A stretch of DNA of 64,000 nt, taken from NCBI GenBank assembly GCA_036660635.1, contig JAVXAF010000001.1, positions 17,857 through 81,856 of the forward strand. The letters run 5' to 3'. The DNA is from Clostridia bacterium (GTDB taxonomy: Bacteria > Bacillota > Clostridia > TANB77 > CAG-465). Numbering within the stretch: the first letter of the stretch is position 1; the number at the start of each line of letters is the position of its first letter. This document shows positions 3,900 to 64,000 of the stretch, one piece after another. Made by a program: the position numbers and the translations under genes. The notes under the pieces are model-generated. The model did no database searches, was not told the DNA's origin, and saw nothing but the letters and a program-made list of their open reading frames with translations.

Positions 3900-4925
3900 T
3901 TAAAATGGTGTATTATCTGGTGAAAAGCCTTTGTCATCTAAATAATAAAATTCTGTATTTTCATAGTCAAATAAATACATATTACCTAAAAAGAATCCCT
4001 TTTTCCCCTCATTATGTTCTACGCCATATTCATCAGTATAAATGTCATTAAAACACCAAACAATTTCTCCTTCTTGTATTTTATGCTCTGGATTTGCTAT
4101 TATATTAATATTATCACCTTTTTTTCCTTTAACTATTCCTATTTCTTTTTTTTGATCTCTTGCTGCTTTTACAAAAGCATTGAAAAAAGTCATATCTCCA
4201 AGAGGCTCTATTACAGTTGGCTTAGTTATTCTTTGTCCTTGAAATATATCCTTAAATCCAGAAGTTATTTGACCTGTATACTTATCAACACTTCCATAAA
4301 CATCATTTATACCACATATATAATATTTATTTCCTTTTTGATCAACAAGATAGTCAATAAGTGGATCTGTAGCAATCTCTCGACAAAAGAATACAGAACC
4401 CTCTAGTTGATATTGCCTATCCTCATATTCTTTCAAATCTTTTTCAGGTATAGTATTACCAGGGGTATACTTATTAGGTAACTCCATATCAGCCCACAAC
4501 TCGTCAACATTAGAATATCCATATGCTTCTACTACATTATTAAGTATTTTATATGTTGTTTTTATATCAAGTTCATTTAGAGCTTTTTTTTCATATATAT
4601 CTGTAGCTATTTTAGTTGCTAAGTTAGTAAAGTTAAAATCTGAAATTTTATTATTATTACTATTTATAACTTTTTTTAACGTATCCCCTATAACTGGATC
4701 TTCAAACCAAGTTGCAATTTTACTTTCTTTTTCAAATTTCCAGTTTATTTCTAATAATTGTTCTTGTTCTTTTTCAGTAGCCGTGTTCCATTTTTTTACT
4801 GCCTCATTTGCCTTTGATATTGGATTATTTTTTAAAAATGTAACTATTACAGCAGTGGCTAAAACAATAATAACAATTATCGTTATTACTAAAACTATTA
4901 AAGATATTCCTCTTTTGTTTTTCAT
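3900..4925 (-). CDS. Pilin-like surface protein, paralog B (342 aa)
   Basis: The first ~100 aa and last ~26 aa are identical to paralog A, while the central region is about 60% identical. The upstream ~110 bp promoter/UTR is identical. Confidence 0.7.
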   Translation of the reverse strand: MKNKRGISLIVLVITIIVIIVLATAVIVTFLKNNPISKANEAVKKWNTATEKEQEQLLEINWKFEKESKIATWFEDPVIGDTLKKVINSNNNKISDFNFTNLATKIATDIYEKKALNELDIKTTYKILNNVVEAYGYSNVDELWADMELPNKYTPGNTIPEKDLKEYEDRQYQLEGSVFFCREIATDPLIDYLVDQKGNKYYICGINDVYGSVDKYTGQITSGFKDIFQGQRITKPTVIEPLGDMTFFNAFVKAARDQKKEIGIVKGKKGDNINIIANPEHKIQEGEIVWCFNDIYTDEYGVEHNEGKKGFFLGNMYLFDYENTEFYYLDDKGFSPDNTPF

Positions 4926-13539: not shown

Positions 13540-14871
13540 TTAAGGAATTTGTATAAATGATCCCATATATACATTGATAAGTGGTACCATTACAGTAATC
13601 ATAAAGAATATAAGTGCAATACCAACAAAAATATATGTTATATCTGGAAGCCACTTAACAAATTTAGCAATAGACTCATCTATTTCCATTACAATATATT
13701 CATTTACTTTTTCCATCATCTCGGCAAGATCTGTTTTCATTCCTATATCAATCATTTCTGTAACCATTGGTTTAAATAGCTTTTTTTCTTCAAATGGTAT
13801 CATCCAAGATCCACCTGATAAAGCGTTAACTTTACCTGCTTCAATTACAGATAAGAAATAGTAATTTTTAGTTACATTTTTTGAAATATCTAAACTTTCT
13901 TGTATTCTCATACCATTTTTTAAATTAAGCAACATAGCTTGAAAAAATTTACTAATTGTTATATTAATATTTAATGGTCCTATAACCGGTATTTTCATAA
14001 TAAGTCTATCAAAATTATATTTTCCTTTTGGTGTATTAATATATGCAAAAAATCCTAAAACTAATAAACCTATTGCTGCTACAACAAAATACCAATTTGC
14101 TACAAACCACTTTGCAATATTTAGACCAATCATAGTTGCAGCTGGTATTTTTTCATTAGAGTCAAACATATCATATACTGATTGTAAAAGTGGAACACCA
14201 ATAATAAGCGCTGCAAACATTGCGATTATAATTCCAAAAAATTGTAACAGTCTTGGAATTACTGCAGATGTAATTTTTTTTCTTAATTTTGTAGATGATT
14301 CTACATAATCTCTTGCGTAAAGTAATGCTGTATCTAGAGTTCCAGACTCTTCACCAACTTTTACGAAGTTTATATACATAGTTGGAAATACTCTGGGATA
14401 ATTTTCCATTACAGCGTACATTCTCTCACCTGATTGAACACCAATTAGTATATCCTCAATTACATTTTTAAAATATTTGTTTTCAGTACCATCATGCACA
14501 GCTTCTAAGGCTTGAATATTATTAAATTTAGCTTTTTTCAATATATATATATTATTTGAAAATATTATTAAATCTTTTGCGCTTACATAATTTATAAATG
14601 TAATCCCATTTTTTGCTAAATCTTTAAATTTCAGATTTTTAAAATTAATTTTACCACTTTCTTTAACTCTTTGCTTTTTGTCTTCTTTTATTAATTTTTC
14701 ATAATCTAGTCTTTTATATTTCTTTTTATTATCTTTCATTTTTTCTACAAAAATTGGTTGAGTGCCATCTTTTTTTAAACTATCAATGGCTAGTGACTTA
14801 TTTAATGCCATGATTCTTCCTCTACCTAATTTTCCATCTTGATATATAACTCTATATTTGTAACTTGGCAA
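13540..14871 (-). CDS. pilC: Type IV pilus assembly platform protein PilC (GspF family, two GspF repeats)
   Basis: 443-aa polytopic protein with the architecture and location typical of PilC/GspF. Confidence 0.85.
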   Translation of the reverse strand: MPSYKYRVIYQDGKLGRGRIMALNKSLAIDSLKKDGTQPIFVEKMKDNKKKYKRLDYEKLIKEDKKQRVKESGKINFKNLKFKDLAKNGITFINYVSAKDLIIFSNNIYILKKAKFNNIQALEAVHDGTENKYFKNVIEDILIGVQSGERMYAVMENYPRVFPTMYINFVKVGEESGTLDTALLYARDYVESSTKLRKKITSAVIPRLLQFFGIIIAMFAALIIGVPLLQSVYDMFDSNEKIPAATMIGLNIAKWFVANWYFVVAAIGLLVLGFFAYINTPKGKYNFDRLIMKIPVIGPLNINITISKFFQAMLLNLKNGMRIQESLDISKNVTKNYYFLSVIEAGKVNALSGGSWMIPFEEKKLFKPMVTEMIDIGMKTDLAEMMEKVNEYIVMEIDESIAKFVKWLPDITYIFVGIALIFFMITVMVPLINVYMGSFIQIP

Positions 14872-14891
14872 TTAAATCGCACCTCCTTTTA

Positions 14892-15992
14892 CTAGTCTGA
14901 TAAAGATCCACCCTCGCCTATTATAATACTTTTAATTATTTGAAATCTATCCGGATCTACATTAGCTTTTACTGTAGCTATATCTATAAGTCCTTTTAAA
15001 TATAAATCTGCAAATGAGTTTTCAAAGCTTAAACATCCCTTTTCTCTTTGACTATGAATAGTATCTTCTATATCTGAGACGTTAAACTTTTCTTGTCTCA
15101 TTTGAGCAGCTATTGTATTATTTACTAACATAACTTCTGGAACCATTAAAAGTTCACCTTTTGTGCTAACAACTAATTTTTGTGAAACTACCATTTTTAA
15201 CACTGAAGACACTGCATTTTTTATAGTTTGTTGATCTGAAGGAGAATACATACTTATTATTCTTTCTACTGTCTCACCACAAGAACGTGTATGTAATGTT
15301 CCAATAACAAGGCCACCTGACTCTGCAAGATCAATAGCAACATCCATAGTTTCTTTGTCTCTTATCTCTCCTAAAACAGCTATATCTGCGTCTTCTCTTA
15401 GTAGATTTATTAATCCATCATGGAAACTTACAACATCAGACTCAGCACCAATTTCTTTTTGTATAATTATTGATTTATCTGATACATGCTCATACTCAAC
15501 TGGATCTTCCAAAGTTACTATTTTTTTATTACTTTCTCTGTTTACCTCTTGAACAAATCCATTCATAGTTGTTGATTTACCAGAGTTTACTTTACCAGTA
15601 ACAAGTATAAGGCCATTTGAAATACTTTTCATTCTTTCAATTATTTGTCTAAGTCCCATACTATTTACATCAATATCTCCATTAGGTATTACCCTCATTG
15701 AAAATGTAGGTAGACCCTTAGTAAGTGATATGTTTATTCTAAATCTATGCTCAGAATATGTATATGAAAAGTCAATTTGTTTTTTTATTTTAAAGTTAGA
15801 ACTTAAGGCTGGAAACCTCTTATAGAAAAAGTTTAATATTTCTTCTAGTGAGATATCTGAGAGTGCAAGTCTAGTCTGATCAAAAAACAACTTTTTTTTC
15901 ACTCTAAAAACTGGAGTTTGTCCTGGTGCCAAATGAATATCTGTAGCTCCTAAACTTATTCCTTTATCAAGTATTGAATGTAATAGTTCCAT
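14892..15992 (-). CDS. pilT: Type IV pilus retraction ATPase PilT
   Basis: LVTGKVNSGKSTTM Walker A, GEIRD, and a ~366-aa PilT-size secretion ATPase. Confidence 0.85.
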   Translation of the reverse strand: MELLHSILDKGISLGATDIHLAPGQTPVFRVKKKLFFDQTRLALSDISLEEILNFFYKRFPALSSNFKIKKQIDFSYTYSEHRFRINISLTKGLPTFSMRVIPNGDIDVNSMGLRQIIERMKSISNGLILVTGKVNSGKSTTMNGFVQEVNRESNKKIVTLEDPVEYEHVSDKSIIIQKEIGAESDVVSFHDGLINLLREDADIAVLGEIRDKETMDVAIDLAESGGLVIGTLHTRSCGETVERIISMYSPSDQQTIKNAVSSVLKMVVSQKLVVSTKGELLMVPEVMLVNNTIAAQMRQEKFNVSDIEDTIHSQREKGCLSFENSFADLYLKGLIDIATVKANVDPDRFQIIKSIIIGEGGSLSD

Positions 15993-16033
15993 ATTTTTTC
16001 CCCTTATTTTAATTATATATTATTTTTATCATA

Positions 16034-17671
16034 TTATATTGTTATTTTTCTTTTTAATTCTGGTATTGTAGTAACACCACTTAATACTTTTTTTACACCA
16101 TCTACTACAAGTGGTTTGTATTCTGTATTTTTAATTGCATATTCTTTTAGCTCCAAATTAGGTTTTCCATCTGCTATCATATCTTTCATATAGTCATCTA
16201 TACAAAGTATCTCAAACACGCCTATTCTCTCGTAATATCCTATATCATTGCAATATTTACATCCAACTGGTTCAAATGGATGAGAATTTTTAATGTCAAA
16301 CTCAGTTCCTGTAAGCTTAGTTACTTTATCAATATACTTTAGTTCTTCTTCTGTAAAATCATGAGGTTTTTTACATTTGTCACATAATCTTCTTACAAGC
16401 CTTTGTGATATTGTAGTAACAACACTAGACGATACATCGTAGCTTGATACTCCCATTTTTCTCATTCTTGTTATTGCTTCAATTGCATCAATTGTATGTA
16501 GAGTAGATAATACTAAGTGACCAGTTTGACCTGCTTCTACAGCTGTTTTTGCTGTTTCTTCGTCTCTTATCTCACCTACTAGTATAATATCTGGATCTTG
16601 TCTTAGAACTGTTCTAAGAGCTGATGCAAATGTTATATTAGGGCCTATTTCAACTTGGTTAATACCTGGTATTCTACGTTCAACTGGATTCTCAATTGAA
16701 ATAATATTTATTGATGGCTTGTCTAAGTACTCAAGCACGCTATACAAAGTTGTAGTTTTACCCTCACCTGTTGGAGCACATACTATAATCATACTGTTTC
16801 TTTTATCAAATGCTCTTTCAACAAGCTCGGAATCTTTTTCAAAACCAAGTTCAAATAAATCTCTTGCTTCTGCATTTTTTCTTAAAAGTCTTAATACAAA
16901 TTTTTCTCCAAAAACATTTTTTTGAGTAGATACACGAATACTAAAATTATCATATGTATCAATACTTCCATCTTGATCATATGCAATTTCTTGATGCATA
17001 TTTGATATTGATTTTAACCTTCCTGTTATGATTTCTTGTCTATTTTTAGGAAGTTCAGTTATTGGTATTAGTTCTCCATCAATTCTATATCTTATCCTTA
17101 TTTTTGTATCCATTGGTTCTACATGTATATCTGATGCTCTTTTATCAATTGCGGTCATTATTATATTATCAATAAGCTTAGAAATATCTTTTTCTTCTTT
17201 ATTTACAAATCCTGATTCAACAGTTTTAATACTAGAAATTTGTTTCATTATAGAAGTATATAGAGTTGCATATATTTCCATATTAAATCCTTGATTCATA
17301 AGTAAAAGTTCTATTTCTTTTACTTTACTTGCATTTTGTGGATCTGCAAATGCAACTTTTAGCGTATTTCCATCTAGAGCAAAAGGGAAAGCTTTATAGT
17401 TTATTATTATATCTCTTGGAAGATATTGAACTGGATTTATTTCAACATCATCTTGTAAAAGTGTTGAATTAATTTGTATTTTAAATGAAAGTACTTCAAG
17501 TAACTGCTCTTTATCACACATATCTAATATATCAACAATTTCACCAAACTTCAAATCTTTGTGCTCTTTTTGATATTCAAGAACTCTATCTACTTGACTT
17601 TCACTTAAAAGTCCCCTTTTTATAAACTCAATGCCAATTGGTGTTTTTCTAGATTTAACATTTTCAAACAT
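16034..17671 (-). CDS. pilB: Type IV pilus assembly ATPase PilB (GspE family)
   Basis: VCAPTGEGKTTTLYS, VGEIRDEETA, and the CxxC...CxxC zinc motif of GspE-type ATPases. Confidence 0.9.
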   Translation of the reverse strand: MFENVKSRKTPIGIEFIKRGLLSESQVDRVLEYQKEHKDLKFGEIVDILDMCDKEQLLEVLSFKIQINSTLLQDDVEINPVQYLPRDIIINYKAFPFALDGNTLKVAFADPQNASKVKEIELLLMNQGFNMEIYATLYTSIMKQISSIKTVESGFVNKEEKDISKLIDNIIMTAIDKRASDIHVEPMDTKIRIRYRIDGELIPITELPKNRQEIITGRLKSISNMHQEIAYDQDGSIDTYDNFSIRVSTQKNVFGEKFVLRLLRKNAEARDLFELGFEKDSELVERAFDKRNSMIIVCAPTGEGKTTTLYSVLEYLDKPSINIISIENPVERRIPGINQVEIGPNITFASALRTVLRQDPDIILVGEIRDEETAKTAVEAGQTGHLVLSTLHTIDAIEAITRMRKMGVSSYDVSSSVVTTISQRLVRRLCDKCKKPHDFTEEELKYIDKVTKLTGTEFDIKNSHPFEPVGCKYCNDIGYYERIGVFEILCIDDYMKDMIADGKPNLELKEYAIKNTEYKPLVVDGVKKVLSGVTTIPELKRKITI

Positions 17672-17683
17672 ATAACTTCCTCC

Positions 17684-17905
17684 TTACCTATTTTCATTTA
17701 TTTTAATTATTGTTTTTTCATAAAATCCATTTATATCTTCTACTGATTTACTATATTTTTCTACTATGTTTTTTTCATATTTATTAGTTAGTATGTCAAA
17801 ATGTTCTTGCTCAGAAAAAGTTGACATTGCATATATGGAAAAAGTAACAGAAGTTAAAATAACCAATAATACTCCTGAGCCTTTTAATCTATTTTTTTTA
17901 CTCAT
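17684..17905 (-). CDS. Small pilin-like protein (73 aa; KGSG|VLLVI N-terminus)
   Basis: Short ORF overlapping the upstream gene by 8 nt. Basic residues, then Gly, then a hydrophobic helix. Confidence 0.4.
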   Translation of the reverse strand: MSKKNRLKGSGVLLVILTSVTFSIYAMSTFSEQEHFDILTNKYEKNIVEKYSKSVEDINGFYEKTIIKINENR

Positions 17906-18377
17906 TTAATTCATCTCCTAGTGCAAAGAAAAACTCACAACTTTTTTCTTCCTTATATTTTAAAAACTTGATTTTTGTTGCAAAACTCTTAGATGCACTA
18001 TCTATTTTTGCTAAAGTTTCAGCATTAATTGAAGTAAGATTAGAAGGTAAAATATCAAATTTACACTCTTCTACTGACTTTACTAATACGCCACCATTTT
18101 TAAAAATAGTTTTTTTTGTACTATCATATGTATATATATCATTATTTGAAAAAGTGATTTTATCTGCTGTTGTCTCTACCCACTGACTTGACTTTGCACT
18201 ACTTAATAGATTTACTTGTAGTTTATCTCTTTGCTCATTAATGTATATATTTCCCTTCTCAGTCATAATTTTATAATTCATATTAGCACTCATTGCAACT
18301 GCAAAAGTAGTAAACAAAAAGAATAACACAACATACAAAACTATTGAAACCATTGTAAGACCAGAAGCTTTTTTCAT
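17898..18377 (-). CDS. Minor pilin-like protein (159 aa; KKASG|LTMVS)
   Basis: Class-III-like N-terminus without Glu5, located in the pilus operon. Confidence 0.5.
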   Translation of the reverse strand: MKKASGLTMVSIVLYVVLFFLFTTFAVAMSANMNYKIMTEKGNIYINEQRDKLQVNLLSSAKSSQWVETTADKITFSNNDIYTYDSTKKTIFKNGGVLVKSVEECKFDILPSNLTSINAETLAKIDSASKSFATKIKFLKYKEEKSCEFFFALGDELNE

Positions 18378-18380
18378 ATG

Positions 18381-19178
18381 TTACACCTTCCCTTTTAAAG
18401 TATCTAAACTAAATTCTTTTGGTTTACCATCTACCATATACTCTACCTTAACATTTACTTTTTTTACAATATCTTCTTTTGACAAATCCTCATCACAATA
18501 TTTTGAAACACTAGTGCTTACCATATAAGTTATATTATCCATTTTTTCTGATGTGGTAGACGAATCCAGTAAATCATACTTTGTTGCAAGTGACACTTCA
18601 ATATTTTTTGTAGCTATCGCAATAGCATTGCTCTTAGCAATGTTTATTATAGACTTCTTTTGATAATTTAAACTCATAATATATGAAGATACTAAAAAAA
18701 GTGTAAACATTATCATAGCTACAACAAGCTCAGATAAAAATACTCCGCTCTTTTTACTTAGTTTTTTTTTATTTAGTTCTACTTTTTCTTCTTCACTCAT
18801 TTTAGATTTCATAATTAAAGATCCTGCTATAGTAAATATAACAGCATATACAAGGCATACAACAAGCAAAGTAAAAGTATAACCAAATATAAAATATAGC
18901 AAAACAAATACTATACCATTAGAAAGCTCTAAAAGTATATATCTAGGACTTATTTGAGAACCACAATACTTGCATTTTCCTCCTCTTATAACAAAACTTA
19001 AAATTGGAATTAAATCGAAAAATCCAAGTCTATGTTTACAACTTGTACAATATGATCTCGTAGCCACTATGTCCTGATGTCTTGGAAGTCTATAGGTAGC
19101 AAGTGAGAAGAAACTTCCAAATAAAGTACCAATTACAAATATACAAAATACAACAAATATATTTAAAAATACTAACAC
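18381..19178 (-). CDS. Fusion ORF: PilD N-terminal domain (TM1, 4-Cys loop, TM2-3; no A24 peptidase catalytic domain) fused in frame to a canonical pilin domain (KKSG|VFLSE)
   Basis: The first ~120 aa match the prepilin peptidase N-terminus (CTSCKHRL...GGKCKYCGSQISPRYILLEL). Then come MKSKMSEEEK...KKSGVFLSELVVAMIMFTLF and a soluble pilin-like C-terminus. No other ORF of 60 aa or more in this interval could supply the peptidase domain. Confidence 0.6.
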   Translation of the reverse strand: MLVFLNIFVVFCIFVIGTLFGSFFSLATYRLPRHQDIVATRSYCTSCKHRLGFFDLIPILSFVIRGGKCKYCGSQISPRYILLELSNGIVFVLLYFIFGYTFTLLVVCLVYAVIFTIAGSLIMKSKMSEEEKVELNKKKLSKKSGVFLSELVVAMIMFTLFLVSSYIMSLNYQKKSIINIAKSNAIAIATKNIEVSLATKYDLLDSSTTSEKMDNITYMVSTSVSKYCDEDLSKEDIVKKVNVKVEYMVDGKPKEFSLDTLKGKV

Positions 19179-45347: not shown

Positions 45348-45563
45348 TTAAACTACCTCCATTACTGCGTTTTTTTATGACATGCCTATTATATCAAATT
45401 TTTCTCTACTTTTCAACTTTTTTTAATAAAAGTAGTTATTTTGGTTAAAAGTTAACAATATTAAAATATAATTAAAAAAATTAATATTGTTTAGCCTATA
45501 ACTTTGTTTGACTTTTTATTATATTTTTAAAAAATATGCTAATACTAACTTTAGGTGATAATA

Positions 45564-46022
45564 ATGAGTTCAAATATTTCTATGTCAAATCAAGAATATT
45601 CAGATTATGTAGATTCTAAAGCAAAAAATAGTCCGGTTTTAAAAGATATATTACTTGCTTTTTTAGTTGGAGGATTAATCTGTACTATAGGTCAACTAAT
45701 AACAAATGGTTTTTTAGCAATGGGATACCAAAAAGAAATCGCGAGTACTATTACAACGATCATTTTGATATTTCTTGGCGCATTTTTAACTGCAATAAAT
45801 TTATATTCCAAAATAGGTAAATTTGCAGGTGCCGGTTCTATCGTTCCAATAACTGGATTTTCAAACTCCATTGTAGCTCCAGCTATTGAATTTAAGACAG
45901 AAGGCTATATACTCGGTCTAGGTGCAAATATGTTTAAAATAGCAGGTCCAGTATTAGTATATGGTATTACCTCTTCAGTAATTGTTGGATTTGTCTATTG
46001 GATAATTAAATTATTTATTTAA
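45564..46022 (+). CDS. spoVAC: Stage V sporulation protein AC
   Basis: The ATG at 45564 has an aggtga SD; the protein is polytopic SpoVAC-like. Confidence 0.85.
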   Translation: MSSNISMSNQEYSDYVDSKAKNSPVLKDILLAFLVGGLICTIGQLITNGFLAMGYQKEIASTITTIILIFLGAFLTAINLYSKIGKFAGAGSIVPITGFSNSIVAPAIEFKTEGYILGLGANMFKIAGPVLVYGITSSVIVGFVYWIIKLFI

Positions 46023-46034
46023 CGGAGGTATAAA

Positions 46035-47051
46035 ATGAAGATAGGAAAACAAACTATACAACTTAAAAATACGCCAAAAATCCTTACTACTTCTAGTATT
46101 GTAGGTCCAAAAGAAATGCAAGGCCCCCTTAGCATATACTTTAGTATGCACACTGATGATCCATACTTTGGCGAAAAAACTTTTGAAAAGGCTGAGAGTA
46201 GTATGCTAAAAAAGTGCATTGAAAATTTAATTTCTTCAGTTCCTACAGATAACGAAAGTATTGATTACATATTTGCAGGTGATTTACTAAATCAATGCAT
46301 TTCTTCTGGATATTGTATAAGAGATCTTGGAATTCCTTTTATTGGGCTTTATGGTGCATGCTCCACTTTTTGTGAATCACTAATGCTTGCTTCTTTATTT
46401 ATAGACACAAATAATGCATCCAAAACTATAGCAGCAACATCCTCTCATTTTTGCAGTGCAGAAAAACAGTTTAGGATGCCTTTAGAGCATGGAAATCAAA
46501 AAAGTCCAACTGCTCAATGTACTGTGACAGGAAGTGGAGCTGCAATTGTAGTCCAAAAAGATATTGGCTTAAAAGGTCCCTATATAACATATATAACACC
46601 AGGGAAAATTATAGATCTTGGAATAAGTGATATAACAAATATGGGAGCTGCAATGATGCCTGCTGCTTTTAATACTATAATGACACATTTAAAAGATACA
46701 GGCAGAAAAGCAAATTATTATGATGCAATTGTAACAGGAGATTTAGGGGTTTTAGGATCTGAGCTTTTAGTGGAACAATTTAAAAAAGAGGGCGTTAATA
46801 TTCAAGGTATACACGCAGATTGCGGAGCTTTGATTTATGATCCTAAAACACAAGACACTCATTGCGGTGGAAGTGGATGTGGATGCATGGCTAGTGTATT
46901 TAGTGGATATTTTTTCGAAATGTTAAAAACTAAAAAAATGAATAAAATTTTAATTGTTGCAACAGGTGCATTAATGAGTCCAATATCTTCTATGCAAGGT
47001 GAAACTATACCTGGTATTGCACACGCTGTTGCAATAGAAAACGAGGTATAA
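46035..47051 (+). CDS. spoVAD: Stage V sporulation protein AD
   Basis: 338-aa thiolase-like fold protein at the operon position. Confidence 0.85.
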   Translation: MKIGKQTIQLKNTPKILTTSSIVGPKEMQGPLSIYFSMHTDDPYFGEKTFEKAESSMLKKCIENLISSVPTDNESIDYIFAGDLLNQCISSGYCIRDLGIPFIGLYGACSTFCESLMLASLFIDTNNASKTIAATSSHFCSAEKQFRMPLEHGNQKSPTAQCTVTGSGAAIVVQKDIGLKGPYITYITPGKIIDLGISDITNMGAAMMPAAFNTIMTHLKDTGRKANYYDAIVTGDLGVLGSELLVEQFKKEGVNIQGIHADCGALIYDPKTQDTHCGGSGCGCMASVFSGYFFEMLKTKKMNKILIVATGALMSPISSMQGETIPGIAHAVAIENEV

Positions 47052-47052
47052 T

Positions 47053-47418
47053 ATGAATATGTTTGTCGAACTTTTAAAAGTATTTTTCACAGGTGGAATT
47101 ATATGTATGATTGCACAAATATTAATTGATAAGACAAAAATGACTCCTGCAAGAATACTAGTACTTTTTGTAACACTAGGCGTTATATTAACAGCAATAG
47201 GTATATATGAACCATTAGTACAATTCGGAGCAGCAGGTGCTACAGTTCCAATATCTGGATTTGGATATTCACTTTCTAAAGGTGTAATAAACGAAATTGA
47301 TAAAATAGGATTTTTAGGTATATTTACAGGTGGAGTTAAAGCCACCTCTGCTGGAATAGCAGCAGCTGTTGTATTTGGATACATGTCATCTTTAATAGCA
47401 AAACCTACAATAAAATAA
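47053..47418 (+). CDS. spoVAEB: Stage V sporulation protein AEb
   Basis: 121 aa, paralogous to SpoVAC (GFLAMGY/GAAGATVPISGFG). Confidence 0.8.
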   Translation: MNMFVELLKVFFTGGIICMIAQILIDKTKMTPARILVLFVTLGVILTAIGIYEPLVQFGAAGATVPISGFGYSLSKGVINEIDKIGFLGIFTGGVKATSAGIAAAVVFGYMSSLIAKPTIK

Positions 47419-57512: not shown

Positions 57513-59045
57513 TTACCTTATTATTAATATCTTTTGCCCAACAGATATGACATCAGGATTTTGTATATCGTTAGTTTTAACTATCTTTTCAACACTTGTT
57601 TTATATTTTCTTGCAATATTCCATAAAGTGTCACCTGCTTTAACTATATATATATTAATACTATCAATGGAAGATCCATCAATTGGAGTTTCTTCAATTT
57701 CTTCTACTATATTTAATTTTGATATATCTTCAATATGATTATTAATTTTTAAAACAATTTTAACTTCAATATCTGTTCCATTTTGAGTAACAATTGCTCG
57801 TTCATCAATTATATCTATATTTACCACAGCATTATTATATATTTTGTCTACCTCAAAATTTTCATTTATTAATATTTCTATAACCTTTGTATCTATTTCC
57901 ATTGTTTCTACATTTTGTAAAATTAACGTAATTTTTGCATTTCCTTCCAAGTTAACATTGTTATTTGTAACTTTAGGAATTATATAATTTGTATCTAAAA
58001 AATATTCTACTACTTTTGTATTTTGAGGTAATATATTAGTAATATTTTCCTTAATATCTATCGCTTTTTCAAAAATAATGTCTTTTTTAACTAAATCTAC
58101 TTTTCGATTAGTATATTCTAATTCTTTGTTTTGGCTATAGAAATCTTCAACATAATTTTCTTCTAGTTCTTCATACATAGTTATGTCAGCTTCTATTTGA
58201 TAATCTATATTCATTGTTTTTGATGTGGTATCAGGGTTTACACTTAAATTTAGATCTCTTGTCATATAATTCATATTAAATTTTGATATATCTTTTATAT
58301 TTTCAAAATCAACCATAGCAGAAAAAGGAATTAAAACATTAAACTTCTTTACGCTTTCTCCTTCTTCATCTGATAAATAAACAACATTGATATCTATATC
58401 TCCTTTTAACATTATTTTGTTATAACTTTCTTTAAATTCAGTATTTTTGATCTTGTTAGTTACATTTAGTATTTCGTAAATATCATCTGCTTCTTTTGGT
58501 ATCATAACATTTTCTTTTGATGCAATTATACTTTTTTTATTTTCAATTATATTGTCAAATTTATCTGTACACATTTTCTTTTCAATATTAACATCTTCAT
58601 CAAATCCTGTTATTATATTTACTTCTTTTGAATTTCTAGCTTTAACTTTAAACATGATTTCAGCTTTAATAGCCATTTTTCTCTCATTTGGTAAAGAATG
58701 TATAATATTTTTAGTTATCGGATTAATTATTACAAATGAATCTTTATCTGCACCTTTAACATCTAAAATTTCTGTAAAAGGGTAAGATACACTAAGTCCC
58801 CTAGTTGTAAACTTTTCATCATTAACTTTGTAAATTATAAAATAATTTAGTTTTCCCATAACTTTGATTTTAGAATCTAGGGGTTCAGTATCCGTTACAT
58901 ATGGGTTGACAGTTACATTTATAATTTTTATAGCATCAGGCTTTGTATCTGGTACAATTATATCTTGTTCAATCCATTTACTTATATTTTCATTTATGCA
59001 TGACATATTTAGTTTTATTTTTTTTCTTTCCGTATTTACGCTCAT
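57513..59045 (-). CDS. DUF3794 (SPOCS) domain protein with a C-terminal LysM (sporulation/coat-assembly-associated)
   Basis: IVPDTKPDAIKI near the N-terminus; LysM YIVKAGDTLWNIARKY...GQKILI at the C-terminus. Confidence 0.65.
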   Translation of the reverse strand: MSVNTERKKIKLNMSCINENISKWIEQDIIVPDTKPDAIKIINVTVNPYVTDTEPLDSKIKVMGKLNYFIIYKVNDEKFTTRGLSVSYPFTEILDVKGADKDSFVIINPITKNIIHSLPNERKMAIKAEIMFKVKARNSKEVNIITGFDEDVNIEKKMCTDKFDNIIENKKSIIASKENVMIPKEADDIYEILNVTNKIKNTEFKESYNKIMLKGDIDINVVYLSDEEGESVKKFNVLIPFSAMVDFENIKDISKFNMNYMTRDLNLSVNPDTTSKTMNIDYQIEADITMYEELEENYVEDFYSQNKELEYTNRKVDLVKKDIIFEKAIDIKENITNILPQNTKVVEYFLDTNYIIPKVTNNNVNLEGNAKITLILQNVETMEIDTKVIEILINENFEVDKIYNNAVVNIDIIDERAIVTQNGTDIEVKIVLKINNHIEDISKLNIVEEIEETPIDGSSIDSINIYIVKAGDTLWNIARKYKTSVEKIVKTNDIQNPDVISVGQKILIIR

Positions 59046-59321
59046 GACTTTTCCTCCTTAATATTTTCTATTACAATATATGTAATAATAAAAAAAGTAT
59101 GAATAATTTTACTTTTTTGTAACTTGTTTTTTACTTATTCATAATATATATTAGTTAAGCTTAAATTATAGCTTAGCATAGATTATTTATCTAAATAACT
59201 AATATTTTTATTATAATTAATACTATATAATCTCCTTAAAAAAAGAGATATTCATTTTTTGAATATCTCTTTTTAATATATAAAAGCAGGTGTTAAACAC
59301 CTGCTACCTCTTATAACCACC

Positions 59322-59788: not shown

Positions 59789-61027
59789 TCATTTATTTTG
59801 TGACATTATATATTCAATCGCTTTTTGCAATTGTGTATCTTTAGACTTTTCTATTACCACTTCATTTTTAAGTTCTTCAGGCAGATCTACAGCAATATTG
59901 GGTTCAATCCCATTTTTATGTATTTCAATTCCACTAGGTGTATAATACTTTGATGTAGTAATAGAAAGAGCCCCGTATCCTCCAAGACCTTCAATACTTT
60001 GTACAATTCCTTTTCCATATGTAGTATTTCCAACTACAACACCTTTTTTAGAATCCTTAATCGCGCTAGCTAATATCTCTGATGCACTAGCACTTCTAGA
60101 ATTTGTTACAACAGCAAGTGGAATATTTATTTCATTTTTTCCATCACATTTATATATTTTTTGATTTCCAGTTTTATTTACGAGTTTTAATATATCGCAT
60201 TTCGGTAACATTAAATTTAAAATGTTGACAGTATCTTTAACTAATCCGCCCGGATTATTCCTTACATCAATAATTAGTCCTTTAATATTTTTAGAGATTA
60301 ATATATCATATTGTTCTTTAAATTGTTTATATATATCGTTGTCAAAAGACCATATTTTAACATATCCAATATTATTTTCTAAAATTTCAGATTCAATATT
60401 ATTAGGTGTAATAGCTTCTCTTTTAACTGATTTTTCTATAATTTCACCTTTTCTTTTAATTAAGATCTTTGCTTCGGTTTCTGCTTTTCCTTTTAATTTA
60501 TCTATAGCCTCATAATAGTTTTCATAAGTTACAACCATCTCATCAACTTGAACAATAACATCTCCAGCTTTAATTTCTGCTTTCATCGCTGGAGAATTTG
60601 GCATAAGTCCAAGGACTAGTATACCAGACTCATCCTTGTCATATGTAATATGAACTCCTATTCCATTGTATACTTCTGTACCAGAGTTTAACATTTCTTT
60701 ATATTCTTCTTCTGATATATACCTAGTATATCTATCTCCTGTTGCATTTGCTATTCCAGATATTGCTCCTTCAACTAGTTTTTCCATTTCAACATCATCT
60801 ATATAGGTATTTGAAACTTTTGATAAAGCATCTTGAATTCTTTCTAAATATTTAGCCATTTCCGGAGATGCTTTAACATTAGAGGCCTCATTTTTCATCA
60901 TTGGTATAATAACTATTGATAACGCAACAATTATAGTCAAACTAACTATAATTGTTATAGTTGCAGTAATTGTATTTGCTATTATTTTAGATTTATCTAT
61001 TTTAATTTTTTCTTTTTTTTCTTCCAT
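59789..61027 (-). CDS. Carboxy-terminal processing protease (S41 family, PDZ-containing; CtpA/CtpB-like)
   Basis: Signal anchor, a PDZ region, and the S41 catalytic core. Confidence 0.8.
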   Translation of the reverse strand: MEEKKEKIKIDKSKIIANTITATITIIVSLTIIVALSIVIIPMMKNEASNVKASPEMAKYLERIQDALSKVSNTYIDDVEMEKLVEGAISGIANATGDRYTRYISEEEYKEMLNSGTEVYNGIGVHITYDKDESGILVLGLMPNSPAMKAEIKAGDVIVQVDEMVVTYENYYEAIDKLKGKAETEAKILIKRKGEIIEKSVKREAITPNNIESEILENNIGYVKIWSFDNDIYKQFKEQYDILISKNIKGLIIDVRNNPGGLVKDTVNILNLMLPKCDILKLVNKTGNQKIYKCDGKNEINIPLAVVTNSRSASASEILASAIKDSKKGVVVGNTTYGKGIVQSIEGLGGYGALSITTSKYYTPSGIEIHKNGIEPNIAVDLPEELKNEVVIEKSKDTQLQKAIEYIMSQNK

Positions 61028-61473: not shown

Positions 61474-61497
61474 AAGCAACTGTAAAGTTGCTTTTTA
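61474..61497 (+). terminator. rpsU terminator
   Basis: gcaactgtaaagttgc followed by ttttt. Confidence 0.55.
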
Positions 61498-62220
61498 TTT
61501 ATTTATATTCTTATTTCTTTTAATTGAATCTAATTCTTTTTTGCTTAAAAATTTATATTTTCCTACTTCAAGTGTTCCAAGTGCTAATTCGCCAACTTTT
61601 ACTCTTTTTAAGTTTCTCAAATTAATTTCAACTGTTTCACACATCTTTCTTATTTGCCTATTTTTGCCCTCACTAATAGTCATCTCAAAAGATGTACTAT
61701 TTAGTCTTTTAACTTTAGCAGGTTTTGTAGTATACTCTCCTATATCAACTCCATTTTTCAAACTTTCTATTTGTTCTTTACTAAGCTGGCCTGCATATGT
61801 TACAATATATACTTTTTCCACATTATTTTTTGGATGCATTAATTCATTTGCAAATTTGCCATCATTTGTAAGTATAAGCAGCCCCTCTGTATCCATATCT
61901 AGCCTACCAACTGGGAATACTCTTACTTTTTCATGTATTAAATCTAATGTACATTTTCTTCCAAATTGTTCATCATTTGTAGTAATATATCCAATTGGCT
62001 TATTTAACATTATATATACTTTCTTTTCATTTATCAAAATCTTTTTTTCATCTATTTTTACAATATCTTTGTGATTTACAAGTGTTGCCAAATCTGTCAC
62101 TATATTTCCATTAATACTAACCTTTGAAGATTTTACAAGTTCATCTGCTTTCCTTCTTGAACAAACTCCAGCGCTTGCAATATATTTATTTATTCTAATC
62201 ATTTTATTCCTTTCATACAC
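61495..62220 (-). CDS. rluB: rRNA pseudouridine synthase (RsuA/RluB family, S4 domain)
   Basis: IRINKYIASAGVCSRRKADELV S4 domain plus the catalytic core. Confidence 0.85.
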   Translation of the reverse strand: MYERNKMIRINKYIASAGVCSRRKADELVKSSKVSINGNIVTDLATLVNHKDIVKIDEKKILINEKKVYIMLNKPIGYITTNDEQFGRKCTLDLIHEKVRVFPVGRLDMDTEGLLILTNDGKFANELMHPKNNVEKVYIVTYAGQLSKEQIESLKNGVDIGEYTTKPAKVKRLNSTSFEMTISEGKNRQIRKMCETVEINLRNLKRVKVGELALGTLEVGKYKFLSKKELDSIKRNKNINK

Positions 62221-62300: not shown

Positions 62301-63227
62301 CTAGGTATTATTTTCTTTTGCTTTTAATTTTTTAATAATGTCTTCAAACTCTTGTGGAATTTCTTTTACAAATTCCATATATTTTCCAGTTGAAGGATGT
62401 ATAATTCCTAGTACTTTTGCATGTAATAATTGTCCCTCAATTTTAAATTTAGGATCTTTTTTACCATAAACAAGATCTCCTACAAGTGGATGGCCTATAT
62501 ATGCCATATGAACTCTAATTTGATGTGTTCTACCGGTTTTTAACTCAGCCTCTACTAATGTAGTGTTTGAAGAGTAAAATCTTTCTAGTACCTCAATATG
62601 TGTCATTGCATCCTTAGAATTCTTATCAGTTACCGCCATTTTTTTCCTGTCTTTAGGGTTTCTTCCTATTGGTTTTTGTATATCAGTTTTATCTTCTTTA
62701 ATAATTCCTTTTACTAAAGCTATATATTTTCTAGTTATACTGTGTACTTTAAACTGTTCAGATAGACTTTTGTGAGCAATATCATTTTTAGCCACAACTA
62801 ATATGCCTGTTGTATCTTTATCTATTCTATGTACTATTCCAGGTCTTATAACACCATTTATACTTGAGAGTTTAGTTGCATGTGAATACATTAAAGAATT
62901 AACTAAAGTACCTGTATAATTTCCGTTTGCAGGATGAACTACCATACCTTTTTTCTTGTTTACTATTATAATATCTTTGTCTTCATAAATAATATCTAAA
63001 TCTATATCTTCAGCCTTGATATCAGGCATTTTATCTTCAATTTTAGCTATACTTACTATATCATTTTCTTTTAAGCTGTACCCTGCCTTTTTAACATTTC
63101 CATTAACTAATATTTTGCCTTCATCATTTAAAGTTTTAATATAGCTTCTAGTATATTGTTCATTTATTTTACTAAGATAAATATCAAGTCTATTTCCTAT
63201 ATTTTCTTTATCTACAATATATTCCAT
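62301..63227 (-). CDS. rluD: RluA-family pseudouridine synthase (RluD-like)
   Basis: HRIDKDTTGILVVAKN; N-terminal S4-like region. Confidence 0.85.
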   Translation of the reverse strand: MEYIVDKENIGNRLDIYLSKINEQYTRSYIKTLNDEGKILVNGNVKKAGYSLKENDIVSIAKIEDKMPDIKAEDIDLDIIYEDKDIIIVNKKKGMVVHPANGNYTGTLVNSLMYSHATKLSSINGVIRPGIVHRIDKDTTGILVVAKNDIAHKSLSEQFKVHSITRKYIALVKGIIKEDKTDIQKPIGRNPKDRKKMAVTDKNSKDAMTHIEVLERFYSSNTTLVEAELKTGRTHQIRVHMAYIGHPLVGDLVYGKKDPKFKIEGQLLHAKVLGIIHPSTGKYMEFVKEIPQEFEDIIKKLKAKENNT

Positions 63228-63318
63228 TTTTTCACCTACCTTTATATTTTAACAGAATTTGTTCATATTTTCAACTTGTTCCCATATATATTTATGAAAT
63301 TATGTATAATAACAAGAA

Positions 63319-63360
63319 AGTCTAATAGTTTTATTTAACTATTAGACTTTTTCTTTCTTA
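63319..63360. terminator. Palindromic hairpin overlapping the spoIIAB stop codon (agtctaatagtt-ttattt-aactattagact), T-rich on the plus side and A-rich on the minus side
   Basis: Perfect 12-bp stem, followed on the plus strand by ttttctttcttattttttttt. It lies upstream of the rluD promoter (TTGAAA-17-TAAAAT on the minus strand). Confidence 0.5.
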
Positions 63361-63790
63361 TTTTTTTTATAAGGGTAACATGGGTACCTTCATTTTTATT
63401 TGAATCTATTATTATTTCATCCATAAATGTCTCCATAATTGTAAATCCCATACCAGCATGTTCTAGCTCTGGCTTTGATGTATATGTTGGTGTAGTTGCA
63501 ATTTCAATATCTTCTATTCCTATGCCACTGTCTATAACTTCAATTCTCACAATACTGTTTTCATCTTTATTAATAATTTTTGCTTTTACTTGTACAATAC
63601 TTTCTTCTGTTAATATATTTTCGTATCCGTGTTCTATAGAGTTAGTAACTGCCTCAGATACTGATGTCTTTATATCCATAAGTTCATCTATTGTAATATC
63701 TAAATTAGATACAAATGAAGAAATAGCTACTCTAACTGTAGATACATTTTCAAGTGTAGCTTTTATATATATTTCAAAAAAATTCTCCAT
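63335..63790 (-). CDS. spoIIAB: Anti-sigma F factor (GHKL serine kinase)
   Basis: DELMDIKTSVSEAVTNSIEHGY and PELEHAGMGFTIMETFMDE match SpoIIAB. Confidence 0.85.
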   Translation of the reverse strand: MENFFEIYIKATLENVSTVRVAISSFVSNLDITIDELMDIKTSVSEAVTNSIEHGYENILTEESIVQVKAKIINKDENSIVRIEVIDSGIGIEDIEIATTPTYTSKPELEHAGMGFTIMETFMDEIIIDSNKNEGTHVTLIKKIRKKKSNS

Positions 63791-63791
63791 A

Positions 63792-64000
63792 TTAACTACA
63801 CCTCATTATAATATCTTTAGAAATATTAGAAAGTTCTAATACTCTTTTTATACTATCCGTAGGATTTTGTAAAATCATATTTGAATCTAAAAGTTTTACA
63901 AGGTTATATCTTCCAATAATAAGACCAATCCCACTGCTATCCATAAAGTTCACATCACTTAAATCAAGTATAAATTCTTTCGGCTGATATCTCATAATAT
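63792..64000 (-). CDS. spoIIAA: Anti-sigma F factor antagonist (STAS domain), N-terminus beyond the window edge
   Basis: DLSDVNFMDSSGIGLIIGRY STAS motif. The frame stays open to the window end. Confidence 0.75.
   Translation of the reverse strand, partial: IMRYQPKEFILDLSDVNFMDSSGIGLIIGRYNLVKLLDSNMILQNPTDSIKRVLELSNISKDIIMRCS

What the first reader, a model, noticed from the sequence alone, without database searches (positions are those of the whole stretch)
63228..64000. spoIIAA-spoIIAB operon is not followed by sigF
Clear SpoIIAA (STAS) and SpoIIAB (PELEHAGMGFTIME anti-sigma kinase) genes are present. Directly downstream of spoIIAB lies a palindromic hairpin overlapping its stop codon, then the promoter and start of rluD. 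In essentially all characterised endospore formers sigF (spoIIAC) is the third gene of this operon. Either sigF has been relocated, which is a major rearrangement of a highly conserved developmental operon, or it lies immediately outside the window in an unexpected orientation. Other sporulation genes in the window (spoIIIA, spoIIP, spoVA, gpr, yunB) argue that the organism still sporulates.
Basis: partly seen in the sequence, partly recalled or inferred. Interest (0 to 1): 0.55.

Follow-up and report, generated by a model that had tools for sequence, protein, structure and literature searches.

The report
spoIIAA-spoIIAB operon lacking sigF
In a whole lineage of uncultured gut Clostridia, the two genes that restrain the first sporulation sigma factor stand alone, without the sigma gene that follows them in the other spore-former lineages examined and behind a different type of promoter; where that sigma gene now lies could not be found.

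Summary
On the minus strand the window carries the 3' part of spoIIAA, a full spoIIAB that passes NCBI's SpoIIAB equivalog cut-off, a strong terminator hairpin over the stop codon, and then rluD with its own promoter. No sigma gene lies in the 64-kb window or in the 10 kb beyond its end.

This is not an assembly accident. All 45 related genomes recovered show it. They form one SpoIIAB clade that includes Clostridium sp. CAG:465 (GTDB order TANB77). In contrast, 55 SigF-type genes examined outside the clade directly follow spoIIAB.

The pair is under strong purifying selection and keeps its kinase motifs, Arg20 and the SpoIIAA phospho-serine. Two further clade-specific changes came to light:
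- The sigmaH-type spoIIA promoter is replaced by a Spo0A-box plus -10 element with a fixed 21-nt spacer.
- Seven SpoIIAB positions that are conserved elsewhere carry fixed substitutions.

The most likely reading is that sigF is encoded elsewhere. I could not locate it, because no whole-genome search of these assemblies was possible. Loss of sigF therefore remains a minority possibility.

I rate this a new variant of a known system, of moderate interest.

The parts
63792..64000 (-). spoIIAA, the anti-sigma-F antagonist (STAS). Only the C-terminal 68 codons are present, cut by the window end; they include the phosphorylatable serine motif FMDSSGIG.
   Evidence: TIGR02886 and TIGR00377 hits and Pfam STAS. 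The full-length 101-aa gene is in L001 9694-9999. The motif is conserved at 90% or more in 45 clade genomes.
63335..63790 (-). spoIIAB, the anti-sigma F factor and serine kinase (GHKL), 151 aa. It starts 1 nt after the spoIIAA stop.
   Evidence: TIGR01925 scores 158 bits against a cut-off of 135. PDB SpoIIAB 1TIL/1L0O match at E about 1e-36. The N-box, G1 and G2 motifs and Arg20 are invariant in the clade. dN/dS is 0-0.19.
63317..63350 (-). Intrinsic-terminator-like hairpin overlapping the spoIIAB stop codon, which closes the two-gene operon.
   Evidence: 14-bp stem, 6-nt loop and tail CTTGTTATTA. MFE -18.4 kcal/mol, z = -6.15, 0 of 200 shuffles as stable. Similar hairpins occur in some clade loci but not all.
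63246..63274 (-). SigmaA-type promoter-like site for rluD: TTGAAA, 17 nt, TAAAAT, with TG before the -10.
   Evidence: 10 of 12 consensus positions matched, extended -10.
62301..63227 (-). rluD (RluA-family 23S rRNA pseudouridine synthase), a housekeeping gene occupying the place where sigF normally sits.
   Evidence: TIGR00005 294.6 bits and Pfam PseudoU_synth_2 + S4. It is also downstream of spoIIAB, directly or after hslO, in most clade loci.
61495..62220 (-). Second pseudouridine synthase (RsuA/RluB/RluF family), part of the conserved downstream block.
   Evidence: TIGR00093 148.8 bits; conserved after rluD in the clade.
45555..47418 (+). spoVAC-spoVAD-spoVAE. These genes follow sigF directly, or after one or a few intervening genes, in many other Clostridia. 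Here they are 16 kb away on the opposite strand and are preceded by a divIVA-like gene, not by a sigma gene.
   Evidence: Pfam SpoVAC_SpoVAEB and SpoVAD. The sigF-spoVAC link is seen in L149, L163, L191, L189 and L196.

Best explanation
In this lineage the ancestral three-gene spoIIA operon (spoIIAA-spoIIAB-sigF) has been reduced to a two-gene unit. The lineage is a monophyletic clade of uncultured, low-GC gut Clostridia that includes Clostridium sp. CAG:465, i.e. GTDB order TANB77. SpoIIAA and SpoIIAB still work as the usual partner-switching pair. SpoIIAB would bind and inhibit a forespore sigma factor and phosphorylate SpoIIAA, and dephosphorylated SpoIIAA would release the sigma. The pair is now transcribed on its own, from a Spo0A-box-dependent promoter of the sigmaA type, and ends at its own terminator. 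The sigma factor it controls is most likely a SigF-type protein encoded at an unlinked locus. Shown: the gene content, the clade-wide fixation, the purifying selection and the promoter change. Inferred: that the module still controls a sigma factor, and that this sigma is a SigF encoded elsewhere.
For: (1) Identity. SpoIIAB passes the equivalog cut-off and is far from RsbW. (2) Not an artefact. The exact protein sits in the same context in an NCBI MAG contig and in two independent Logan assemblies. All 45 related genome loci lack any SigF/G/E-type sigma within up to 10 kb on each side, as far as each contig extends. (3) A single origin. In a SpoIIAB tree the 45 sigma-less loci form one clade, and every SpoIIAB outside it is followed by sigF. 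(4) Baseline. 55 SigF-type genes outside the clade are directly preceded by spoIIAB: 11 genome loci, 38 metagenome loci and 6 look-ups. (5) Function is retained. dN/dS is 0-0.19 in 16 pairs. The N-box E46/N50, G1 DxGxG, G2 GMGF and Arg20 are 100% conserved, and SpoIIAA FMDSSG is at least 90% conserved. (6) Still tied to sporulation. 36 of 45 clade loci have TT[C/A][G/T/A]ACA (a Spo0A-box; exact TTCGACA in 17) upstream of a TAnAnT -10 element, with a spacer of exactly 21 nt in 34. Many sporulation genes lie nearby. A conserved sigmaE/K-like promoter precedes sipL in 12 of 12 clade loci, so a mother-cell sigma programme exists. (7) Unlinked SigF-type genes do exist. P0347/L198 is an orphan SigF-type sigma with an exact Spo0A box upstream, from a low-GC organism. 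(8) Published surveys find sigF in every known spore-former (bioRxiv 10.1101/2022.02.25.481979; PMC3533761).
Against: No sigF of this clade was actually found. Both ancestral links are broken, spoIIAB|sigF and sigF|spoVAC. A single inversion would not do this, and a deletion would. The clade's SpoIIAB carries fixed substitutions at seven positions that are 86-100% conserved in other lineages: S13L, E16V, A19V, P32I, R104H, S105A and V121I in window numbering. Three of these flank Arg20, which hints at an altered partner. The orphan sigma P0347 could not be tied to the clade: tetranucleotide comparison was inconclusive and no neighbouring genes were shared.
Confidence: 0.68

Rival explanations
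1. sigF has been lost from the lineage. SpoIIAA/SpoIIAB now control a single forespore sigma factor, either SigG-like or a SigF/G intermediate, or some other sigma.
For: Both flanks of the ancestral sigF position are separated and no remnant is detectable. SpoIIAB has fixed substitutions next to Arg20 and in the ATP-lid motif, ELERSGMGF changed to ELEHAGMGF. The promoter type has changed. In B. subtilis SpoIIAB can also bind SigG (my own knowledge, not tested here).
Against: Every characterised spore-former has sigF. The module is under strong purifying selection with all motifs known for SigF control intact. Absence was shown only for about 74 kb of this genome and for up to 10 kb on each side of spoIIAB (as far as each contig extends) in the other clade genomes.
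Confidence: 0.12
2. The pair is a diverged paralogue, and a complete spoIIAA-spoIIAB-sigF operon exists elsewhere in the same genomes.
For: SpoIIAA scores below the equivalog cut-off (81 against 115 bits). The clade SpoIIAB has unusual fixed substitutions. Partner-switching modules are often duplicated in Firmicutes (my own knowledge).
Against: SpoIIAB passes the SpoIIAB equivalog cut-off and is about 24 orders of magnitude closer to SpoIIAB than to RsbW structures. The genome scan returned one SpoIIAB locus per clade genome and never a second, canonical one. This evidence is weak, because the scan used exact peptide words from the query. The Spo0A-box promoter and the sporulation-gene neighbourhood fit the primary module.
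Confidence: 0.07
3. The lineage no longer sporulates, and the pair is a relic or has been put to another use.
For: The organisms are uncultured and no spores have been observed. Genome-reduced gut Firmicutes often lose sporulation. The asporogenous Eubacterium rectale is recorded as lacking sigF (PMC3533761).
Against: dN/dS of 0-0.19 rules out a decaying relic. The window and its flank carry intact spoIIIA, spoIIP, spoIIM, spoVAC/D/E, gpr, yunB, sipL and ctpB. Sporulation-type promoter motifs are conserved.
Confidence: 0.05
4. Assembly or binning artefact: sigF was dropped or the contig is chimeric.
For: All the sequences are metagenome-assembled.
Against: The same junction occurs in 45 independently assembled species-level genomes from rabbit, sheep, buffalo, mouse, chicken and human samples, and in three assemblies of this very sequence. 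The junction carries a terminator and a promoter.
Confidence: 0.01

Closest known systems
Canonical spoIIA operon (spoIIAA-spoIIAB-sigF) of Bacillus and Clostridium
   Same: It has orthologous SpoIIAA and SpoIIAB with the phospho-serine, the GHKL kinase motifs and Arg20, tight coupling of the first two genes, a link to Spo0A, and a sporulation-gene neighbourhood.
   Different: The third gene, sigF, is missing from the operon and from the surrounding 10 kb or more. The operon ends at its own terminator and is followed by rluD or hslO-rluD. The promoter lacks the sigmaH-type AAGG..GAAT seen in related canonical lineages. SpoIIAB carries seven clade-fixed substitutions at otherwise conserved positions.
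B. subtilis spoIIG-type promoter: sigmaA-dependent, activated by Spo0A~P, with an over-long spacer (my own knowledge)
   Same: A Spo0A-box (TTCGACA or a one-mismatch variant) sits where a -35 element would be. It is followed at a fixed, over-long distance (21 nt) by a good -10 element, often preceded by TG.
   Different: Here it drives spoIIAA-spoIIAB, which in B. subtilis and in the canonical relatives sampled has a sigmaH-type promoter. Binding by Spo0A and use by sigmaA are inferred from sequence only.
RsbV-RsbW-SigB partner-switching module
   Same: It has the same architecture of a STAS antagonist plus a GHKL anti-sigma kinase.
   Different: RsbW models score 60-73 bits against cut-offs of 145-155, and the RsbW structure matches at only 2e-12. 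There is no sigB and no Rsb phosphatase genes nearby.
Orphan SigF-type sigma P0347
   Same: It shows that a SigF-family gene with a Spo0A box upstream can stand alone, away from spoIIAB, in a low-GC organism. This is the arrangement predicted for the missing partner.
   Different: Its source organism is unknown and could not be linked to this clade.

Membership tests
SpoIIAB, anti-sigma F factor (NCBIfam TIGR01925 equivalog) | Whole-protein score above the curated cut-off | tested here: met
   158 bits against a cut-off of 135.
SpoIIAB, anti-sigma F factor (NCBIfam TIGR01925 equivalog) | GHKL ATP-binding motifs (N-box E/N, G1 DxGxG, G2 GxGxT) and Arg20 | tested here: met
   All are present in the window protein and 100% conserved in 45 clade sequences. 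However, ELERSG is replaced by ELEHAG in the lid.
SpoIIAB, anti-sigma F factor (NCBIfam TIGR01925 equivalog) | Closer to solved SpoIIAB than to RsbW | tested here: met
   1TIL/1L0O at E about 1e-36 against 6M36 at 2e-12.
SpoIIAB, anti-sigma F factor (NCBIfam TIGR01925 equivalog) | Binds and inhibits SigF and phosphorylates SpoIIAA | not testable with these tools
   Needs biochemistry, and the partner sigma is not identified.
SpoIIAA, anti-sigma F factor antagonist (TIGR02886) | Score above the equivalog cut-off | tested here: not met
   The full-length protein from L001 scores 81.4 bits against a cut-off of 114.75. It does pass the superfamily model TIGR00377 (67.1 against 53.45).
SpoIIAA, anti-sigma F factor antagonist (TIGR02886) | Phosphorylatable serine in a DSSG motif, with the gene immediately upstream of spoIIAB | tested here: met
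   FMDSSGIG is present and at least 90% conserved in the clade. The gap to spoIIAB is 1 nt.
Canonical tricistronic spoIIA operon | sigF (spoIIAC) directly downstream of spoIIAB | tested here: not met
   A terminator and then rluD follow. No SigF/G/E-type sigma lies in the window, in L001 or in the 45 clade loci.
Canonical tricistronic spoIIA operon | SigmaH-type promoter (AAGG..GAAT) with Spo0A boxes | tested here: not met
   0 of 45 clade loci have the sigmaH-like pattern. Instead, 36 of 45 have a Spo0A-box, a spacer of 17-24 nt (21 nt in 34) and a -10 element. At least 5 of 23 canonical relatives have AAGG..GAAT and none has the clade motif.
RsbW, anti-sigma B factor | Score above the curated cut-off | tested here: not met
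   72.8 and 59.9 bits against cut-offs of 145 and 155.

The most novel reading that the evidence does not exclude
A whole order-level lineage of gut Clostridia (TANB77) runs endospore formation without a dedicated sigF. Its SpoIIAA/SpoIIAB switch is rewired to a Spo0A/sigmaA-type promoter and carries altered residues beside Arg20 (in the N-terminal region) and in the ATP lid. It would then govern a single forespore sigma factor, a state resembling the presumed ancestor before the SigF/SigG duplication.
Probability: 0.12. Interest if true: 0.85.

Novelty: new variant of a known kind. Interest (0 to 1): 0.5.

Why it matters
The spoIIAA-spoIIAB-sigF operon is one of the most constant gene arrangements in endospore formers, and 55 of the 59 SigF-type genes with context examined outside this clade were linked to spoIIAB. 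Work in B. subtilis (my own knowledge) suggests that the co-expression of the anti-sigma factor with its sigma, and the chromosomal position of spoIIAB, contribute to forespore-specific activation of sigmaF. This clade has uncoupled them, changed the promoter type, and moved the pair to about 7 kb downstream of the rpoA-rplQ ribosomal cluster. It is therefore a natural experiment on how much of that logic is dispensable. It also matters practically. Gene-order-based or operon-based annotation of sporulation capacity in gut MAGs will misjudge this abundant uncultured order. If sigF is truly absent, the accepted 'four sigma factors in every spore-former' rule would have an exception.

Tried and rejected
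1. A sigma gene just outside the window is rejected. L001 extends 10 kb beyond spoIIAA and holds none.

2. The 290-314-aa gene between spoIIAB and rluD in some relatives is Hsp33 (hslO), not a divergent sigma.

3. Weak HMM hits to ~180-aa ORFs upstream in several clade loci are ribosomal protein L17. L039 has a sporadic ECF sigma and L038 has two small region-4 proteins. None of these replaces SigF.

4. Three searches of the 5.8-billion-protein collection were made, with the SigF of L052, a low-GC SigG-like profile and a low-GC SigF profile. Each lists only the 120 best hits, and none belonged to the clade.

5. A metagenome scan used a SigF/G motif restricted to AT-rich codons. It gave 120 loci, all either canonical (spoIIAB-sigF or sigE-sigG), from another lineage, or phage-like.

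6. A group of 'orphan' low-GC SigG-like sigmas looked promising. Its context (sigG-ylmC-yunB-yutD-yutH) differs from the window's sipL-yunB, so it belongs to another lineage.

7. A search of 1.84 billion cluster representatives was followed by look-ups of the most AT-biased SigF representatives. Six were canonical, one was phage-like, and one was an orphan (P0347) that I could not tie to the clade.

9. The literature gave no description of the arrangement. Papers mentioning TANB77 and sporulation say nothing on it, and the supplementary gene table of PMC11536998 is truncated in the held copy.

10. Reading forespore-type promoters upstream of gpr and spoVAC by eye was inconclusive in this AT-rich DNA.

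Full report
WHAT IS THERE

The finding lies on the minus strand.
- spoIIAA enters from the window end at 63792..>64000. Only its last 68 codons lie in the window.
- spoIIAB occupies 63335-63790 and starts 1 nt after the spoIIAA stop.
- A 107-nt spacer follows.
- rluD is at 62301-63227, and a second pseudouridine synthase is at 61495-62220.

SpoIIAB scores 158 bits on the NCBIfam SpoIIAB equivalog, whose cut-off is 135. It scores only 60-73 bits on the RsbW models, whose cut-offs are 145-155. Its closest solved structures are the Geobacillus SpoIIAB entries 1TIL, 1L0O and 1TH8 at E about 1e-36, against 2e-12 for RsbW.

The spacer holds a hairpin at 63317-63350 that overlaps the stop codon. It has a 14-bp stem and a T-rich tail, folds at -18.4 kcal/mol and has z = -6.15 against shuffles. 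An extended -10 promoter-like site for rluD lies at 63246-63274.

No sigma-70-family ORF exists anywhere in the 64-kb window. This holds for tblastn with five SigF proteins, for maximum-sensitivity hmmsearch with SigF and SigG profiles, and for phmmer with a SigE protein.

BEYOND THE WINDOW

The exact SpoIIAB protein occurs in NCBI MAG GCA_036657795.1 (contig JAVXFS010000004.1, locus L001) and in two Logan assemblies, all with the same neighbours.

L001 supplies the full 101-aa spoIIAA and 10 kb upstream. That stretch holds a terminator, a 350-aa protein with no family match, a sortase, a 285-aa unknown, xerD, spoIIM, RNase H, rplQ, rpoA and rpsD/K/M. It contains no sigma gene. The idea that sigF sits just outside the window is therefore wrong.

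A CLADE-WIDE FEATURE

A scan of one genome per GTDB species with the SpoIIAB protein returned 55 loci.

In 45 of them SpoIIAB is 54-77% identical to the window's. These are uncultured Clostridia MAGs from rabbit, sheep, buffalo, mouse, chicken and human guts, and they include Clostridium sp. CAG:465 and CAG:921. In these loci spoIIAB is usually followed by rluD, or by hslO (Hsp33) and then rluD. A few have other genes there. None has a sigma gene.

In 11 more distant loci (39-50% identity) a 233-245-aa SigF follows spoIIAB directly: 10 of the 55 scan loci, plus L058, which the same call also listed.

None of the clade loci carries a SigF/G/E-type sigma within up to 10 kb on each side, as far as each contig extends. 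The only sigma-like hits were one ECF sigma in L039 and two small region-4 proteins in L038. The other weak hits were ribosomal protein L17.

In a neighbour-joining tree of 90 SpoIIAB sequences, the 45 sigma-less ones form a single clade. Every sequence outside it comes from a canonical operon.

The downstream block, (hslO)-rluD-rluB-...-ctpB-(sipL-yunB)/recA, is conserved in the clade, so the arrangement is old.

The genus CAG-465 is classified in GTDB as c__Clostridia; o__TANB77; f__CAG-465. I read that taxonomy string in a supplementary table of PMC11536998. Assigning the whole clade to TANB77 is an inference from this one member.

HOW UNUSUAL IT IS

I looked at as many SigF-type genes as the tools allowed. 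Outside the clade, 55 are directly preceded by spoIIAB:
- 11 genome loci;
- 38 metagenome loci;
- 6 look-ups of diverse low-GC cluster representatives.

There were four exceptions:
- two phage-like copies, L066 and L194;
- one STAS-sigma pair without spoIIAB, L169;
- one true orphan, P0347.

[quoted passage not shown] The papers I could search contain no description of a spoIIA operon without sigF.

THE MODULE IS ALIVE

Within the clade, spoIIAB shows dN/dS of 0-0.19 in 16 pairs. The GHKL N-box (E46, N50), G1 (DxGxG), G2 (GMGF) and Arg20 are invariant. SpoIIAA keeps FMDSSG, the motif that contains the phosphorylated serine, in at least 90% of members.

The neighbourhood is rich in sporulation genes:
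- spoIIM upstream;
- ctpB, sipL and yunB downstream;
- spoIIIAG/AH, gpr, spoIIP and spoVAC/D/E further on.

Upstream of sipL, 12 of 12 clade loci share a sigmaE/K-like promoter: (T/G)CATA, then a spacer, then CATATA(T/G)TGTA. A mother-cell sigma programme is evidently in use.

TWO FURTHER CLADE-SPECIFIC CHANGES

The first is the promoter. In 36 of 45 clade loci the region upstream of spoIIAA reads TT[C/A][G/T/A]ACA, then a spacer, then TAnAnT, followed by a GAGGTG ribosome-binding site.
- The 7-mer is the Spo0A-box consensus TTCGACA in 17 loci and a one-mismatch variant in most others.
- The spacer is exactly 21 nt in 34 loci.
- The -10 element is often preceded by TG.
- None of the 45 has a sigmaH-like AAGG-N13-21-GAAT.

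Among 23 canonical relatives with enough upstream sequence, none has the clade motif. At least five (L063, L079, L109, L131, L162) show the classical sigmaH pattern, and several more do by eye. The clade's layout resembles the Spo0A-dependent sigmaA promoter of B. subtilis spoIIG, which also has an over-long spacer. That comparison rests on my own knowledge, not on a test here.

The second is SpoIIAB itself. Seven positions that are 86-100% conserved in other lineages carry a different residue in the clade, fixed or nearly fixed: S13L, E16V, A19V, P32I, R104H, S105A and V121I in window numbering. Three of them flank Arg20, and two lie in the ATP lid (ELERSG changed to ELEHAG). This pattern, conserved but different, suggests an adjusted interface with SpoIIAA and/or the sigma partner. 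What it means is not known.

WHERE IS SIGF?

I could not answer this. I tried the following.
- Three protein-collection searches.
- A metagenome scan with a SigF/G motif written in AT-rich codons.
- A profile search of 1.84 billion cluster representatives.
- The remaining eleven of the twelve context look-ups, nine of them on candidate sigma proteins.

These showed how constant the canonical operon is, but they produced no sigma that could be assigned to the clade.

One look-up was instructive. P0347 (249 aa, locus L198) is a SigF-type sigma that scores 237 bits on the SigF model against 195 on SigG, below both cut-offs. It sits alone between a peroxiredoxin gene and a two-component system on a 136-kb contig of 32% GC.

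Upstream of it lies the Spo0A box TTCGACA. The extended string TTTCGACAATATAC there also occurs in the spoIIA promoters of clade members L031 and L034. Its GC content falls within the range of the GC-richer subclade, 0.30-0.34. Tetranucleotide similarity was inconclusive, and no neighbouring genes are shared. It proves only that unlinked, Spo0A-box-preceded sigF genes exist.

INTERPRETATION

The best-supported reading, at about 0.68, has three parts.
- The lineage split the spoIIA operon.
- It kept a functional SpoIIAA/SpoIIAB switch under a new, Spo0A-box-dependent promoter.
- It encodes its SigF-type partner elsewhere.

Four rivals remain.
- True loss of sigF, with SpoIIAB governing a single forespore sigma, at about 0.12. 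Both ancestral junctions are broken, spoIIAB|sigF and sigF|spoVAC. The spoVAC-D-E genes lie 16 kb away on the other strand behind a divIVA-like gene. The altered SpoIIAB residues also fit this reading.
- A diverged paralogue with a full operon elsewhere, at about 0.07.
- A non-sporulating lineage, at about 0.05.
- An artefact, at about 0.01.

The first three are each weakened by the family scores, the selection data and the sporulation-gene context. The artefact reading is ruled out by recurrence in 45 independent assemblies.

One further inference is unverified. The pair sits about 7 kb downstream of rpoA-rplQ, a region that is usually origin-proximal. In B. subtilis the spoIIA operon is origin-distal, and the position of spoIIAB has been proposed to matter for sigmaF activation (my own knowledge). 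If both points hold, this clade would also differ in that respect.

VERDICT

- The finding is a new variant of a known system, of moderate interest (0.5).
- The decisive step is a whole-genome sigma-factor census of a few clade assemblies. It is simple but was not available here.

Noticed in passing
L198 4001-4750 (protein P0347); upstream region 3900-4000: An orphan SigF-type sigma gene (249 aa) with no spoIIAA/spoIIAB next to it. It lies between a peroxiredoxin gene and a response-regulator/KdpD-like pair on a 136-kb ENA contig of 32% GC. An exact Spo0A box (TTTCGACAATATAC) lies about 95 nt upstream. It is a candidate for the unlinked sigF of the GC-richer subclade, but no link was established.
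   Followed up: partly
L001 9640-9693 and the equivalent regions of L004-L045, L051, L057 (just outside the window end): The spoIIA promoter in the clade is a Spo0A-box 7-mer, a fixed 21-nt spacer and a -10 hexamer often preceded by TG. There is no sigmaH-type AAGG..GAAT. Canonical relatives show the sigmaH pattern and never the clade motif.
   Followed up: yes
window 63335-63790 (SpoIIAB residues 13, 16, 19, 32, 104, 105, 121): Clade-fixed or nearly fixed substitutions occur at positions 86-100% conserved in other SpoIIABs: S13L, E16V, A19V, P32I, R104H, S105A and V121I. Three flank Arg20 and two lie in the ATP lid (ELERSG changed to ELEHAG).
   Followed up: partly
L169 3046-4060: A STAS (SpoIIAA-like, 114 aa) gene overlaps the start of a divergent SigF-like sigma (236 aa) with no spoIIAB between them. 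A pilin-like gene, spoVAC and spoVAD follow. This is the converse of the window's arrangement, in another low-GC lineage.
   Followed up: partly
L066 2324-3046; L194 5001-5744; proteins P0255, P0368, P0379: SigF-family sigma genes embedded among many small ORFs without family matches, or fused to long extra regions. They are probably phage- or mobile-element-encoded copies.
   Followed up: no
window 59046-59160 region upstream of sipL (57513-59045, -) and the equivalent in 11 clade loci: A conserved sigmaE/K-like promoter ((T/G)CATA ... CATATA(T/G)TGTA) lies upstream of sipL-yunB. In contrast, ctpB (59789-61027) has a near-perfect sigmaA promoter, TTGAC(T/G)-N17-TATAAT, in most clade loci.
   Followed up: partly
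L018, L019, L022, L025, L026, L028-L034: In a GC-richer subclade ctpB is followed directly by recA. The sipL-yunB pair that lies between them elsewhere in the clade is absent from this position. This subclade also has exact, sometimes doubled, TTCGACA boxes upstream of spoIIAA.
   Followed up: no
L181-L188 (protein P0121) and L072, L096, L104, L111, L130: A widespread low-GC lineage has sigG without sigE upstream, in the context rluX-DUF188-x-sigG-ylmC-yunB-yutD-DUF1292-x-yutH. Its SigG scores just below NCBI's SigG cut-offs.
   Followed up: partly
window 6538-9036 (+) and 13540-19178 (-): A TraG/VirD4-like coupling-protein homologue stands alone on the plus strand. A type IV pilus/T2SS-like cluster (T2SSF, two T2SSE ATPases, prepilin peptidase) lies just before the spoIIIA operon.
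   Followed up: no
L106 416-1018: A 200-aa ORF whose N-terminal 120 residues are SigF-like and whose C-terminus is thioredoxin-like, on a 1.1-kb contig. It is probably a chimeric assembly.
   Followed up: no
L039 2708-3304; L038 2088-2528 and 3098-3616: An ECF-type sigma gene lies directly after rplQ in one clade genome, and two small sigma-region-4-only proteins lie at the same place in another. They are sporadic and not conserved in the clade.
   Followed up: partly
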